DNA from: Escherichia coli
GTDB taxonomy: Bacteria; Pseudomonadota; Gammaproteobacteria; Enterobacterales; Enterobacteriaceae
Length of the DNA stretch: 64,000 nucleotides
Strand: one strand, 5' to 3'
NCBI RefSeq assembly: GCF_022846255.1
Contig: NZ_AP025682.1
Shown here: piece by piece, positions 59,101-62,100 of the stretch
Layout of the letters: the number at the start of each line of letters is the position of its first letter
How positions within the stretch are numbered: the first letter of the stretch is position 1
Position numbers: made by a program

Positions 59101-62100
59101 GGGGCAACCTCTTCAGTCAGGTGTGCGATCTCCTGCACCGCATTCACATACGCCATTTCGCTGGCGATGAGTTCGTCCCATTGTTCTTCTGTCGCCAGGC
59201 GTAACATGAGCTGGCTTTTTTCGACGAGTTGTTGCCAGGCGAAATACAAATGCGGTGCATGGTTCATCAGACTGGGTCCTGAATCAAAGAAGGGGAGAGT
59301 AAAGACTCTTTCCAGGCATCGGCAATATTACGCATTAATGCTTCCACCTCTTCGACTGCGGAGACATCGTTGCGTAAATTGGCTTGCAGCAAACGCCTGA
59401 CCATATAGCTATAAAGAGCAATTAAGTTTTGGGTTAATTCGTCTTTGCTCTCTTCATCAAGACTCACCCGCAGTCCGTTCTCAATGATGTTGATCGCTTT
59501 TGACAAAGAGACACCTTTGCCTTGCTGATTGTTGTCCTGCATAAACAGGCGCGCTCTAACCAGTGCGCTCAGCACTCCATCAAATAGCATGGTGACCAAC
59601 TGCTGTTGGCTGGCGCTCATTACGGCGCTTTCGACGCCAATTTGTGCATAGGCCTGGGTGCCTTTTGCCGCGTACATGACCTGTCTCCCGATGAATATTG
59701 ATTACTTGGAATTACTGTTGTTTTCGAACTGCTGCGTTAAGTAGCTGCTGGTGCTGTTTAACGAGGTCATTAAAACGTCCAGTTGGGTAAATTGTTCTTT
59801 GTAGCGAGCGACCTGTGCATCAATGCGATCGCTGGCGGCGTTGTAGTCTTTAGTTAACTTATTCAGGGTCTTACTAACGCCATCGGTAGCGGCTTTAATA
59901 ATGCCTGTTGTCGAAAGCCAACTGGTCAGGTTGCTGCCGATGGTGGTCGTGATGCCGGTTTTTTTACCATCGCCAACAATCAATGCACCTACGCCGCTGG
60001 CATCTTTTTTCAGTGCAGCGGTGAGTTTGTCGGCATCCAGTTCCAGTTTGCCATCGCTGGGATCGGTCGTGATACCAATCTGCGCCAACGTTTTATAGTT
60101 GGAAGAACTAACGGTATTACTCAGCATCGATTTCAACTGCGTCTGAATCGTCCGCAACGTGGAGTCGCCGAGCAGTGCGCCATTGCTAGAACTCTGGCTA
60201 TCAGCCCCCGCATCTACGGCGGTGTATTTGGTCAGGCTGCTGAAGGTATCTATTAGCGAGTTATAGGCATTCACCCAGTCTTTAATCGCCGTTTGCGCTT
60301 TGGATGTGTCCTGAGTGATGGTTAGCGTCTGGTTGCCCGTGGTGACATCGTTCAGGTTCAGGGTGATGTTTTCCAGCGCGTCGCTGATGGTGTTGCTGCT
60401 GTTCTCAATGGCGACGTTATTGACCGTCAGCTGTGCATTCTGGGCGGCGACCGAGACCTCCATGCCGTTGCTGCTGGCACTGGCGTCATAGCCCATAAAA
60501 CTTTGTAGCGCATCATCACCGCTGACCGAGAGTGTCATCGCATTATCAAGGCCGGTGTCATTTGATGTGACTGACAGACGATATTCACCGTTACCCACGT
60601 TAATGATGCTTGCGCTTACGCCTGCTTTTGCGTTGTTGATGGCATCACGAATCCCGCTTAACGACGAGTTAGCCGCGCTGATATCAATGGCAATCGGATC
60701 TTTGTCGCCGCCTTGTTGAATGGTGAGTTTGCTGTCGCTGGTGGCGATCGCCGTTTTCGTATCGTCTCTGGTGGTGCGCGTTGTCAGGGTTTGCGCCTGC
60801 GCCAGATGGGTGACGCTGATGGTGTATTTCCCGGCGATGGCATTACCCGCGGTGGTGGCACTGAACGCGGTGGTGCTGCTGGTGGTGCTGGTAGCGGAAA
60901 AAAGATCGGCTTTAGACAATGCAGTATTGGCGGTCTGGAAAGTCGTCAGCGCGCTTTTCAGCGTACCGTAGGCGCTAAGTTTAGCGGTAAACGACGATTG
61001 CTGATTCGAAATAGGGGTTAGCGTCGCTTTTTGCGCGGCGGTGAGGCTATCAAGGATTGAACTTAAATCCAGACCTGACCCGACTCCCAGCGATGAAATA
61101 CTTGCCATGCGATTTCCTTTTATCTTTCGACACGTAAAACGAATACCGGGGTTATCGGCCTGAATTGCGCAAAGTTTACGTTTAATTGTTTTTTTTAATA
61201 GCGGGAATAAGGGGCAGAGAAAAGAGTATTTCGTCGACTAACAAAAAATGGCTGTTTGTGAAAAAAATTCTAAAGGTTGTTTTACGACAGACGATAACAG
61301 GGTTGACGGCGATTGAGCCGACGGGTGGAAACCCAAAACGTAATCAACGACTTGCAATATAGGATAACGAATCATGGCACAAGTCATTAATACCAACAGC
61401 CTCTCGCTGATCACTCAAAATAATATCAACAAGAACCAGTCTGCGCTGTCGAGTTCTATCGAGCGTCTGTCTTCTGGCTTGCGTATTAACAGCGCGAAGG
61501 ATGACGCCGCGGGTCAGGCGATTGCTAACCGTTTTACTTCTAACATTAAAGGCCTGACTCAGGCTGCACGTAACGCCAACGACGGTATTTCTGTTGCACA
61601 GACCACCGAAGGCGCGCTGTCCGAAATCAACAACAACTTACAGCGTATCCGTGAGCTGACGGTTCAGGCTTCTACCGGGACTAACTCTGATTCGGATCTG
61701 GACTCCATTCAGGACGAAATCAAATCCCGTCTCGACGAAATTGACCGCGTATCCGGTCAGACCCAGTTCAACGGCGTGAACGTACTGGCAAAAGACGGTT
61801 CGATGAAAATTCAGGTTGGTGCGAATGACGGCCAGACTATCACTATTGATCTGAAGAAAATTGACTCTGATACGCTGGGGCTGAATGGTTTTAACGTGAA
61901 TGGTTCCGGTACGATAGCCAATAAAGCGGCGACCATTAGCGACCTGACAGCAGCGAAAATGGATGCTGCAACTAATACTATAACTACAACAAATAATGCG
62001 CTGACTGCATCAAAGGCCCTTGATCAACTGAAAGATGGTGACACTGTTACTATCAAAGCAGATGCAGCTCAAACTGCCACGGTCTATACATACAATGCAT

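What the first reader, a model, noticed from the sequence alone, without database searches (positions are those of the whole stretch)
61109..61373. Back-to-back sigma-28 promoters in the fliD/fliC divergent region
An exact TAAA-N15-GCCGATAA reads on the minus strand toward fliD (61152-61178) and a one-mismatch copy reads on the plus strand toward fliC (61271-61297). Both late flagellar promoters are therefore identifiable from sequence, separated by about 95 bp.
Basis: partly seen in the sequence, partly recalled or inferred. Interest (0 to 1): 0.2.

Follow-up and report, generated by a model that had tools for sequence, protein, structure and literature searches.

The report
Known fliD/fliC flagellar promoter region

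Summary
TAAA-N15-GCCGATAA lies at 61178..61152 on the minus strand, 42-43 nt before the fliD ATG. TAAA-N15-GACGATAA lies at 61271-61297 on the plus strand, 76 nt before the fliC ATG. Their TAAA ends are 92 bp apart.

They are not chance matches. The window has 3 hits at one mismatch or fewer, against 0.31 expected, and the third hit is the known fliL FliA site. A FliA weight matrix built without these sites ranks fliD first and fliC ninth of about 128,000 positions.

The spacer is 99% identical to E. coli K-12, where the same motifs are FliA ChIP-seq sites. Both motifs recur in all 59 distinct enterobacterial fliD-fliC spacers examined. Salmonella transcript starts lie 7 nt after each -10 octamer.

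One correction: fliD is not purely "late". A conserved FlhDC box (61197-61239) sits 18 nt from TAAACT, which serves as sigma-70 -10 and sigma-28 -35. In K-12, fliD expression falls under two-fold without FliA but about 200-fold without FlhDC.

Verdict: real, correctly interpreted, already known, low interest.

The parts
59702..61108 (-). fliD coding sequence (filament cap protein); first gene of fliD-fliS-fliT
   Evidence: ORF list. NCBIfam NF005955 FliD equivalog, 684 bits against a cutoff of 387; FliS and FliT follow downstream. RefSeq annotation of near-identical genomes agrees.
61152..61159 (-). fliD sigma-28 -10 octamer GCCGATAA (exact consensus; K-12 has ACCGATAA)
   Evidence: Sequence; pattern hit; top weight-matrix hit in the window. 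Invariant in the 32-species alignment and in 59 spacers. FliA ChIP-seq site in K-12.
61171..61178 (-). fliD sigma-28 -35 octamer TAAACTTT. Its first six bases, TAAACT (61178..61173), are also the inferred sigma-70 -10 hexamer of the FlhDC-dependent class 2 fliD promoter.
   Evidence: Sequence; invariant across genera. In Salmonella a start labelled 'Sigma 70 (-10)' lies 6 nt after the same TAAACT, matching primer extension.
61144..61144 (-). Predicted fliD class 3 (sigma-28) transcript start, plus or minus 1-2 nt; gives a 36-nt leader
   Evidence: Inferred by homology. The Salmonella start is 7 nt after GCCGATAA, and the aer sigma-28 start is 6 bp after its octamer. Not mapped in E. coli in any data I could read.
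61166..61166 (-). Predicted fliD class 2 (sigma-70, FlhDC-dependent) transcript start, plus or minus 1-2 nt; gives a 58-nt leader
   Evidence: Inferred by homology to Salmonella P1129, which starts 6 nt after TAAACT and 22 nt upstream of the class 3 start. Geometry matches fliA and fliL in this window.
61187..61200 (-). Minor start reported in K-12 (window 61187, 79 nt before the fliD ATG), with a TATTAA hexamer at 61200..61195. Low confidence.
   Evidence: Kim et al. 2012 supplementary TSS table, value 3 in the column I took to be read count, converted to window coordinates using the alignment. The hexamer overlaps the FlhDC box, so this start is unlikely to be the FlhDC-activated one.
61197..61239 (.). 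FlhDC box for the fliD class 2 promoter: AATAGCGGGAATAAGG - 11 nt - GAGTATTTCGTCGACT
   Evidence: Matches the published consensus at 18 of 28 positions, within the top 87 of about 192,000 placements in the window. The known fliA, fliL and fliE/F boxes score 19-20. It coincides with the conserved blocks of the alignment. In all 59 spacers the best box lies 18-20 nt from TAAACT. FlhDC occupancy at fliDST was shown by ChIP-qPCR in K-12.
61260..61270 (+). Conserved A-tract GAAAAAAATTC directly upstream of the fliC -35; inferred UP-element-like contact for the RNA polymerase alpha subunit
   Evidence: Conserved in nearly all genera. The function is my inference from its position (about -46 to -36) and was not tested.
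61271..61278 (+). fliC sigma-28 -35 octamer TAAAGGTT
   Evidence: Sequence. Present in 55 of the 59 distinct spacers; three of the other four differ at one or two bases and one is read a base out of register. Identical to the K-12 FliA ChIP-seq motif.
61290..61297 (+). fliC sigma-28 -10 octamer GACGATAA (one departure from GCCGATAA; the A is conserved in many genera)
   Evidence: Sequence; pattern hit; conservation. Strongest FliA ChIP-seq peak in K-12, with a 200-fold FliA dependence. In vitro sigma-28 transcription and footprint.
61305..61306 (+). Predicted fliC transcript start (G61305 or A61306); gives a 68-69-nt leader
   Evidence: Inferred by homology to the Salmonella start, 7 nt after the octamer and 62 nt before the ATG, using the alignment. 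The Enterobacter fliC start agrees with the same elements.
61307..61334 (+). Two small 5'-terminal hairpins of the fliC leader: CGGC-GAUUGA-GCCG (61307-61320) and GGGU-GGAA-ACCC (61323-61334)
   Evidence: Minimum-free-energy fold. Both hairpins are predicted in 12 of 16 leaders folded, and the first in 14. One pair shows a compensatory change, CG/UG/UA. No Rfam family matches here.
61374..63161 (+). fliC coding sequence (595-aa flagellin; nearest genomes carry H1-type flagellin)
   Evidence: ORF list; NCBIfam FliC/FljB, 802 bits against a cutoff of 619. Nearest genomes are LF82, O83:H1 NRG857C and Nissle 1917.

Best explanation
This is the divergent fliDST/fliC regulatory region of an E. coli strain whose closest matches include LF82, O83:H1 NRG857C and Nissle 1917. 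It holds three functional promoters.

1. fliC class 3 promoter. FliA (sigma-28) RNA polymerase recognises TAAAGGTT-N11-GACGATAA (61271-61297, plus strand). A conserved A-tract just upstream probably helps. Transcription starts near 61305/61306 and gives a 68-69-nt leader that begins with two small hairpins. This is the only promoter for flagellin, so fliC fires only after the hook-basal body exports the anti-sigma factor FlgM and frees FliA.

2. fliD class 3 promoter. FliA RNA polymerase recognises TAAACTTT-N11-GCCGATAA (61178..61152, minus strand) and starts near 61144.

3. fliD class 2 promoter. FlhDC binds a 43-bp imperfect palindrome (61197-61239) and recruits sigma-70 RNA polymerase to TAAACT, 18 nt away, starting near 61166. 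TAAACT is the same DNA that sigma-28 reads as its -35 element, so the two fliD promoters overlap and their starts are about 22 nt apart.

The cap protein and its chaperones are therefore made both early (FlhDC) and late (FliA), whereas flagellin is made late only.

Shown directly: the sequence elements, their statistical excess and their conservation.
Shown by others in K-12 or Salmonella on near-identical or homologous DNA: FliA and FlhDC occupancy, expression dependence, transcript starts and in vitro transcription.
Inferred: the exact start positions in this strain, the role of the A-tract and the role of the leader hairpins.
For: Sequence and statistics.

Identity to K-12: 261 of 265 positions.

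Published FliA ChIP-seq motifs. The fliC motif is identical to the window's, and the fliD motif differs at one base.
- fliC: 110-fold above threshold; expression 2319 to 11 without FliA.
- fliDST: 43-fold above threshold; expression 633 to 356 without FliA and 633 to 3 without FlhD or FlhC.
- FlhDC ChIP-qPCR is positive at fliDST.
- An independent array study found fliC down 78.8-fold and fliD down 9.9-fold in a fliA deletion.

Biochemistry: sigma-28 RNA polymerase transcribes, band-shifts and footprints E. coli fliCp in vitro.

Salmonella starts:
- fliC: 7 nt after GCCGATAC.
- fliD: 7 nt after GCCGATAA.
- A second fliD start 6 nt after TAAACT, labelled sigma-70 -10, matching primer extension by Kutsukake and Ide 1995.

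Conservation across genera (supplied the loci, anchored only on the fliC start codon):
- All 59 distinct fliD-fliC spacers carry both motifs in the same orientation. The 11-nt spacers inside the motifs vary freely.
- -10-to-ATG distances are 68-99 nt for fliC and mostly about 42 nt for fliD (range 18-117).
- The gap between promoters is mostly 91-95 bp.
- Genera include Escherichia, Enterobacter, Kluyvera, Pantoea, Erwinia, Serratia, Hafnia, Edwardsiella and Salmonella.

FlhDC box:
- 18 of 28 consensus positions, comparable to the known fliA, fliL and fliE/F boxes in this window.
- It coincides with the conserved alignment blocks.
- It lies 18 nt from TAAACT, the same spacing as box-to-GATAAT at fliA (18 nt) and fliL (19 nt).
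- The best box lies 18-20 nt from TAAACT in all 59 spacers, although offsets of 8-31 nt were searched.
Against: - No E. coli data set that I could read maps starts at the predicted sigma-28 positions. Kim et al. 2012 list only a start 79 nt before the fliD ATG (window 61187) and a start 326 nt upstream of fliC inside fliD, with values of 3 and 2 in what I took to be the read-count column. I suspect flagellar genes were weakly expressed in that culture, but I did not check this, and it is not positive support.
- The fliC motif is only rank 9 in the weight-matrix scan. Eight other window positions, most presumably non-functional, score higher.
- The FlhDC consensus is degenerate. Eighty-six other placements in the window score at least as well as the fliD box. 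In vitro genomic SELEX gave only a weak signal at fliDST, 6 against a cutoff of 10, and ChIP-seq peak calling missed it.
- In K-12 the fliD sigma-28 promoter contributed little mRNA under the conditions tested.
Confidence: 0.95

Rival explanations
1. Only the fliC element is a working sigma-28 promoter. The fliD element binds FliA polymerase but is essentially silent, and fliD is in practice a class 2 (FlhDC/sigma-70) gene.
For: In motile K-12, a fliA deletion lowered fliD expression by less than two-fold (633 to 356), while an flhD deletion abolished it (633 to 3). The authors say FliA-dependent transcription contributes very little to dual-regulated transcripts under their conditions.
Against: - The fliD site is the best FliA motif in the window at 22.2 bits and is invariant across 59 spacers from many genera.
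- Overexpressing FliA in an flhD deletion restores fliD to wild-type levels or higher.
- Another study saw a 9.9-fold drop in a fliA deletion.
- Salmonella dRNA-seq shows a strong primary start 7 nt after the octamer, stronger than the class 2 start (103/409 against 10/16 in the table's count columns).
- In Salmonella the class 3 fliD promoter is reported to be needed for swarming and filament repair (cited).
Confidence: 0.1
2. The motif matches are chance resemblances in an AT-rich spacer and do not function as promoters.
For: The weight matrix finds eight other sites in the window that score above the fliC site. Short degenerate motifs do recur by chance.
Against: - Three hits against 0.31 expected, with none of 100 shuffles reaching 3.
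- Correct orientation and distance to both genes.
- Identity to ChIP-seq-bound motifs.
- Invariance of the octamers while the internal spacers diverge freely across genera.
- Mapped starts in Salmonella.
Confidence: 0.01
3. The FlhDC-dependent fliD start is the one reported in K-12 at window 61187, using TATTAA at 61200..61195 as the -10 hexamer, rather than about 61166 using TAAACT.
For: It is the only fliD start listed in the one E. coli TSS table I could read. TATTAA lies 7 nt upstream of it.
Against: - The value listed is only 3.
- The hexamer lies inside the proximal half of the conserved FlhDC box, so bound activator would occlude it.
- At fliA and fliL the box ends 18-19 nt upstream of the -10 hexamer, a geometry that fits TAAACT exactly.
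- Most other genera have CATTAA at this position.
- The Salmonella class 2 start maps after TAAACT.
Confidence: 0.1

Closest known systems
E. coli K-12 fliC and fliDST FliA (sigma-28) class 3 promoters (Fitzgerald et al. 2014, PMC4183435; Kundu et al. 1997 and Ide et al. 1999, both cited but not read)
   Same: Same locus. The spacer is 265 bp in both strains and identical at 261 positions. The 28-nt fliC motif is identical, and the fliD motif is identical except for one base.
   Different: The window has G where K-12 has A at the first base of the fliD -10 octamer (GCCGATAA against ACCGATAA). The window allele matches the consensus and every other genus examined. An exact 60-mer match to it occurs in 2552 of 3187 E. 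coli genomes, against 360 for the K-12 allele. The other three differences (61234, 61258, 61337) lie outside the core elements; 61234 is inside the distal FlhDC half-site.
Salmonella fliD dual class 2 / class 3 promoter and fliC class 3 promoter (Kutsukake and Ide 1995; Aldridge et al. 2006; dRNA-seq of Ramachandran et al. 2012, PMC3293720)
   Same: Same architecture. The sigma-28 fliD promoter is TAAACTTT-N11-GCCGATAA. A sigma-70 start lies 6 nt after TAAACT and 22 nt upstream of the sigma-28 start. An FlhDC-like box lies 19 nt upstream of TAAACT. The fliC sigma-28 start is 7 nt after the -10 octamer.
   Different: Salmonella fliC uses TAAAGTTC-N11-GCCGATAC, whereas E. coli uses TAAAGGTT-N11-GACGATAA. 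Leaders are slightly shorter in Salmonella: 62, 32 and 54 nt, against about 68-69, 36 and 58 nt predicted here.
fliA and fliL dual promoters of E. coli (both also in this window)
   Same: An FlhDC box 18-19 nt upstream of a sigma-70 -10 hexamer, overlapped by a FliA promoter.
   Different: At fliA and fliL the sigma-70 hexamer GATAAT sits in the spacer of the sigma-28 promoter. At fliD the sigma-70 hexamer TAAACT coincides with the sigma-28 -35 element, so the class 2 start is further upstream of the class 3 start.
TldR guide-RNA repression of the host fliC promoter in Enterobacter prophages (Wiegand et al., PMC10705468)
   Same: It acts on the homologous fliC -10 element in the fliD-fliC spacer. 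The authors also saw off-target TldR binding at the E. coli K-12 fliC/fliD spacer.
   Different: That is a phage-encoded RNA-guided repressor. I did not look for one in this window, and nothing in the spacer itself suggests it.

Membership tests
FliA (sigma-28) class 3 flagellar promoter: fliC element | -35 octamer resembling TAAAGTTT | tested here: met
   TAAAGGTT at 61271-61278, 7 of 8 positions (consensus).
FliA (sigma-28) class 3 flagellar promoter: fliC element | 11-nt spacer between the octamers and a -10 octamer resembling GCCGATAA with the CGA core intact | tested here: met
   11 nt, then GACGATAA at 61290-61297, 7 of 8 positions with CGA intact. Weight-matrix score 13.6 bits, rank 9 of about 128,000.
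FliA (sigma-28) class 3 flagellar promoter: fliC element | Transcript start about 6-8 nt downstream of the -10 octamer | not testable with these tools
   No E. coli start at this position in the data I could read. The homologous Salmonella start is 7 nt after the octamer, and the Enterobacter start agrees.
FliA (sigma-28) class 3 flagellar promoter: fliC element | FliA occupancy and FliA-dependent expression | not testable with these tools
   Published for the identical 28-nt motif in K-12: the strongest ChIP-seq peak (110-fold above threshold), expression 2319 to 11 in a fliA deletion, and -78.8-fold in an array study. In vitro sigma-28 transcription and footprint.
FliA (sigma-28) class 3 flagellar promoter: fliC element | Conservation of the elements in orthologous regions | tested here: met
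   The best weight-matrix hit in all 59 spacers is the orthologous site, 68-99 nt before the fliC ATG. The octamers are conserved and the spacer is variable.
FliA (sigma-28) class 3 flagellar promoter: fliD element | -35 octamer, 11-nt spacer and -10 octamer matching the consensus | tested here: met
   TAAACTTT-N11-GCCGATAA at 61178..61152, 15 of 16 positions. Top weight-matrix hit in the window at 22.2 bits.
FliA (sigma-28) class 3 flagellar promoter: fliD element | FliA occupancy and FliA-dependent expression | not testable with these tools
   K-12, whose motif differs at one base: ChIP-seq 43-fold above threshold. Dependence is weak in one study (633 to 356) and 9.9-fold in another. FliA overexpression restores fliD in an flhD deletion.
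FliA (sigma-28) class 3 flagellar promoter: fliD element | Transcript start about 6-8 nt downstream of the -10 octamer | not testable with these tools
   Salmonella P1128 starts 7 nt after GCCGATAA. No E. coli mapping was found.
FliA (sigma-28) class 3 flagellar promoter: fliD element | Conservation in orthologous regions | tested here: met
   TAAACTT(T/C)-N11-G(C/T)CGATA(A/C) in 59 of 59 spacers, mostly about 42 nt before the fliD ATG, range 18-117.
FlhDC-dependent class 2 flagellar promoter: fliD | FlhDC box (AAYGSSNNAAATAGCG-N10-12-CGCTATTTNNSSCRTT) | tested here: inconclusive
   61197-61239 matches 18 of 28 positions, in the same range as the known boxes in the window (19-20), but 86 other placements score at least as well. 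Conservation and constant geometry support it.
FlhDC-dependent class 2 flagellar promoter: fliD | Box ends about 18-19 nt upstream of a sigma-70 -10 hexamer, with no good -35 | tested here: met
   18 nt from the box to TAAACT here, against 18 nt at fliA and 19 nt at fliL in the same window. 18-20 nt in all 59 spacers.
FlhDC-dependent class 2 flagellar promoter: fliD | FlhDC occupancy, and FlhDC dependence that persists without FliA | not testable with these tools
   K-12: ChIP-qPCR positive, ChIP-seq peak sub-threshold, expression 633 to 3 without FlhD or FlhC but 356 without FliA. Weak genomic SELEX signal.
FlhDC-dependent class 2 flagellar promoter: fliD | Sigma-70 transcript start downstream of the hexamer | not testable with these tools
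   Salmonella start 6 nt after TAAACT, by dRNA-seq and primer extension. The only E. coli start reported is at 61187, with a value of 3.

The most novel reading that the evidence does not exclude
The promoters themselves are not new. The least-charted feature is downstream of the fliC promoter. The first 30 nt or so of the fliC leader form two small hairpins (61307-61320 and 61323-61334). They recur at the same place across Enterobacterales with a few compensatory changes, and no Rfam family matches them. They could be a conserved 5'-terminal element that protects the very abundant flagellin mRNA from 5'-end-dependent decay or tunes its translation.

A second loose end is that fliC is the strongest FliA site in vivo yet carries a conserved non-consensus -10 (GACGATAA) and a low matrix score. 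This suggests its strength comes from the conserved upstream A-tract or from other contacts.
Probability: 0.3. Interest if true: 0.25.

Novelty: already known. Interest (0 to 1): 0.08.

Why it matters
It matters little beyond correct annotation. The region is the classic switch that delays flagellin synthesis until the hook-basal body is complete, while allowing the cap protein FliD and its chaperones to be made both early and late.

The check does show that sequence-only reading can locate these promoters correctly. It also adds three points:
- The fliD sigma-28 -35 element doubles as the sigma-70 -10 of an FlhDC-dependent promoter.
- The whole three-promoter layout is conserved across Enterobacterales.
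- Laboratory K-12 carries a minority, less consensus-like allele in the fliD -10 octamer.

Tried and rejected
E. coli transcript-start data at the sigma-28 positions, none found:
- The Kim 2012 supplement lists only low-count starts elsewhere.
- The Cho 2014 supplement has no fliC or fliD entries as held.
- The Conway 2014 supplements are not held.
- A coordinate search of the Cappable-seq supplement found nothing; the stored files may be incomplete.
- Four ids were returned as 'not held': one intended as Thomason 2015, and those for Aldridge 2006 and Wozniak 2010. I gave these ids from memory, so a wrong id is possible.
- The eLife paper on sigma-28-dependent small RNAs and the RNase E paper give no fliC or fliD start positions.

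Other checks that led nowhere:
- The generic sigma-70 consensus scan found nothing in 60900-61600. This is expected for activator-dependent class 2 promoters that lack a -35.
- CRP input was rejected. Hollands et al. saw no clear CRP binding to the fliC/fliD fragment.
- CsrA binding to the GGA in the loop of hairpin 2 was considered. The GGA loop is confined to Enterobacteriaceae-like genera and is replaced by AACA or AAUCAG elsewhere, so I do not propose it.
- My first attempt to place the FlhDC half-sites at AATAGCG and GTATTTCG gave a 20-bp spacer and was rejected. The 16+11+16 placement fits the published consensus.
- No Rfam family lies in the spacer. The only sub-threshold hits are REP-like elements downstream of fliC.
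Full report
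**What is in the sequence**

The stretch 61109-61373 is exactly the 265-bp spacer between two divergent genes.
- A 468-aa ORF on the minus strand has its ATG at 61108. NCBIfam identifies it as FliD (684 bits against a cutoff of 387).
- A 595-aa ORF on the plus strand has its ATG at 61374. NCBIfam identifies it as FliC/FljB flagellin (802 bits against 619).
- FliS and FliT follow fliD.

The region is from E. coli. The best matches are LF82, O83:H1 NRG857C, Nissle 1917 and similar strains.

Reading the bases:
- 61152-61159 is TTATCGGC and 61175-61178 is TTTA, with 15 nt between. This is an exact TAAA-N15-GCCGATAA on the minus strand, pointing at fliD.
- 61271-61274 is TAAA and 61290-61297 is GACGATAA, with 15 nt between. 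This is a one-mismatch copy on the plus strand, pointing at fliC.
- The two TAAA ends are separated by 92 bp.

**More than chance?**

The pattern at one mismatch or fewer occurs three times in the window, against 0.31 expected from dinucleotide-preserving shuffles; none of 100 shuffles reached three. The third hit, 45414-45440 on the minus strand (TCAAGACGCAGGATAATTAGCCGATAA), is the published FliA site upstream of fliL.

The matrix came from 48 of the 52 FliA ChIP-seq motifs of Fitzgerald et al. 2014, leaving out the four that lie in this window.

| Site | Score (bits) | Rank of about 128,000 |
|---|---|---|
| fliD | 22.2 | 1 |
| fliA promoter (63429-63456) | 17.5 | 2 |
| fliC | 13.6 | 9 |
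| fliL | 13.6 | 10 |

The fliD element is unmistakable on sequence alone. The fliC element is identifiable only together with its position, because eight other positions, six of them with no known function, score higher.

**Link to experiments**

The spacer aligns to E. coli K-12 MG1655 without gaps and differs at four positions. In K-12, Fitzgerald et al. (PMC4183435) report the following:
- The identical fliC motif is the strongest FliA ChIP-seq peak in the genome, at 110-fold above threshold. Expression falls from 2319 to 11 in a fliA deletion.
- The fliDST motif is 43-fold above threshold.
- The K-12 fliD motif differs from the window at one base. K-12 reads ACCGATAA where the window reads GCCGATAA.

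Other supporting work:
- Zhao et al. 2007 found fliC down 78.8-fold and fliD down 9.9-fold in a fliA deletion.
- Purified sigma-28 RNA polymerase transcribes, shifts and footprints E. coli fliCp in vitro.
- Hollands et al. give the consensus TAAAGTTT-N11-GCCGATAA. They place the aer start 6 bp after the octamer and saw no clear CRP binding to the fliC/fliD fragment.

**Transcript starts**

I could not find an E. coli data set with starts at the sigma-28 positions. The Kim et al. 2012 table lists a start 79 nt before the fliD ATG (window 61187) and one 326 nt upstream of fliC, with values of 3 and 2 in what I took to be the read-count column. I suspect flagellar genes were weakly expressed in that culture, but I did not check this. 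I treat the data as uninformative rather than contradictory.

The Salmonella SL1344 dRNA-seq supplement is informative (PMC3293720):
- fliC starts 62 nt before the ATG and 7 nt after GCCGATAC, and is labelled sigma-28.
- fliD has one start 32 nt before the ATG and 7 nt after GCCGATAA, labelled sigma-28.
- fliD has a second start 54 nt before the ATG and 6 nt after TAAACT, labelled 'Sigma 70 (-10)'.
- These agree with the primer-extension positions of Aldridge 2006 and of Kutsukake and Ide 1995, listed in the same supplement.

In Enterobacter, the RNA-seq fliC start agrees with the K-12 -35 and -10 annotation.

Transferred through the alignment, the expected starts here are:
- about 61305/61306 for fliC;
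- about 61144 for fliD class 3;
- about 61166 for fliD class 2.

The 92 bp between the two sigma-28 promoters is not empty. Fitzgerald et al. show that fliDST is dual-regulated:
- FlhDC occupies the promoter by ChIP-qPCR.
- Expression falls from 633 to 3 without FlhD or FlhC, but only to 356 without FliA.

The published FlhDC consensus fits 61197-61239 at 18 of 28 positions. The placement is AATAGCGGGAATAAGG, then 11 nt, then GAGTATTTCGTCGACT. The known boxes in this window score similarly: fliA 19, fliL 19, fliE/F 20. The motif is loose, and 86 other placements score at least as well.

Three things make the assignment convincing:
1. It coincides with the two conserved blocks in a 32-species alignment.
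2. Its proximal end lies 18 nt from TAAACT. The fliA and fliL boxes in this window end 18 and 19 nt from their GATAAT hexamers.
3. In all 59 distinct spacers the best-scoring box lies 18-20 nt from TAAACT, although offsets of 8-31 nt were searched.

TAAACT is therefore read as a -10 hexamer by sigma-70 polymerase recruited by FlhDC, and as the start of the -35 octamer by sigma-28 polymerase. This matches the mapping in Salmonella.

**Conservation**

A scan of one genome per species, anchored only on the fliC start codon, returned 87 loci. Sixty have fliD divergently upstream; with the window these give 59 distinct spacer sequences.

In every one, the best matrix hit on each strand is the orthologous promoter:
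- TAAAGGTT-N11-GACGATAAC in Escherichia, Enterobacter, Kluyvera, Pantoea, Erwinia and related genera.
- TAAAGGTT-N11-GCCGATACC in most Serratia, Hafnia and Edwardsiella.
- Salmonella arizonae and Winslowiella end in GCCGATACA, and Salmonella's -35 is TAAAGTTC.
- TAAACTTT-N11-GCCGATAAC for fliD.

Other features:
- The 11-nt internal spacers differ freely.
- Distances to the start codons are 68-99 nt for fliC and mostly about 42 nt for fliD (range 18-117).
- The gap between promoters is usually 91-95 bp. It is 73-74 bp in a subgroup that lacks the variable segment 61240-61258, and 104 bp in Erwinia and Pantoea.
- An A-tract (GAAAAAAATTC, 61260-61270) directly upstream of the fliC -35 is also conserved. 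I infer that it acts like an UP element, which would help explain why fliC is the strongest FliA site despite its modest matrix score. This was not tested.

**Mechanism and verdict**

The region works as the established flagellar hierarchy describes.
- FlhDC with sigma-70 polymerase fires fliD early.
- Once the hook-basal body exports FlgM, free FliA fires fliC, its only promoter, and fires fliD again from a start about 22 nt downstream of the class 2 start.

The one amendment is that fliD is not purely a late gene. Nothing here is new, and interest is low.

**Side observations**

- The window's G at 61159 (GCCGATAA) is the majority E. coli allele and matches all other genera. An exact 60-mer match occurs in 2552 of 3187 genomes. 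The K-12 A allele occurs in 360.
- The fliC leader begins with two small hairpins. Both are predicted in 12 of 16 leaders folded, with limited compensatory change. No Rfam family covers the spacer.
- Sub-threshold REP-like hits lie downstream of fliC, in the region where K-12 annotates the FliX small RNA.

Noticed in passing
window 45413-45440 (-), with 45448-45490: Third hit of the sigma-28 pattern: TCAAGACGCAGGATAATTAGCCGATAAG, 20 nt or so before the fliL ATG. It is identical to the published K-12 fliL FliA ChIP-seq motif. A GATAAT sigma-70 hexamer sits inside its spacer, and an FlhDC-like box (19 of 28) ends 19 nt upstream of that hexamer. This is another dual class 2/3 promoter.
   Followed up: partly
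window 63377-63456 (+): fliA promoter region. An FlhDC box (63377-63420, 19 of 28) is followed 18 nt later by GATAAT (63439-63444), embedded in the FliA motif TGCAGAAACGGATAATCATGCCGATAAC (rank 2 in the matrix scan). The K-12 start 30 nt before the fliA GTG maps to 63451.
   Followed up: partly
window 61159: Single-base difference from K-12 inside the fliD sigma-28 -10 octamer: G here (GCCGATAA, consensus) against A in K-12 (ACCGATAA). The matrix score is 22.2 bits here against 19.0 for K-12. The G allele's 60-mer is exact in 2552 of 3187 E. coli genomes and the K-12 allele's in 360. All other genera have G.
   Followed up: yes
window 61307-61334 (+): Two small hairpins at the very 5' end of the predicted fliC mRNA (CGGC/GCCG and GGGU/ACCC). 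They recur at the same position in most enterobacterial genera with a few compensatory changes (CG/UG/UA; U-A/U-G/C-G). There is no Rfam match. The whole-leader fold z-score is only -1.95.
   Followed up: partly
window 61290-61298 and 61260-61270 (+): fliC is the strongest FliA ChIP-seq site in K-12, yet its motif scores low (13.6 bits). The non-consensus A in GACGATAA and the G in TAAAGGTT are themselves conserved across many genera, as is the A-tract just upstream. This suggests promoter strength comes partly from outside the two octamers.
   Followed up: partly
L012, L033, L057, L064 (Escherichia loci), compared with window 61240-61258: A second type of fliD-fliC spacer exists in Escherichia: 246 bp, a 73-bp gap between promoters, lacking the variable segment between the FlhDC box and the fliC A-tract, and paired with a different FliD N-terminus (…DSLEAAEKSTL). 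About 2,200 of 5,426 E. coli genomes gave no megablast match to the window's 60-mer, which may reflect this or other haplotypes.
   Followed up: no
window 63163-63323: Sub-threshold Rfam hits to REP-derived families (naRNA4, ES036) immediately downstream of the fliC stop codon. This is the region where K-12 annotates the 3'UTR-derived small RNA FliX.
   Followed up: no
window 39275-39302 (-), 55536-55563 (+), 37187-37214 (+), 43540-43567 (-): FliA matrix hits that score above the fliC promoter (14.3-17.0 bits) at positions away from the known flagellar promoters. They may be the kind of intragenic FliA sites reported genome-wide in K-12, or simply false positives. I checked neither the gene context nor the K-12 list.
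   Followed up: no
L044, L045: Two contigs labelled as a Collinsella metagenome-assembled genome carry a fliD-fliC spacer nearly identical to the E. coli window (one base differs in the fliC leader). This almost certainly reflects E. coli contamination of that bin.
   Followed up: no
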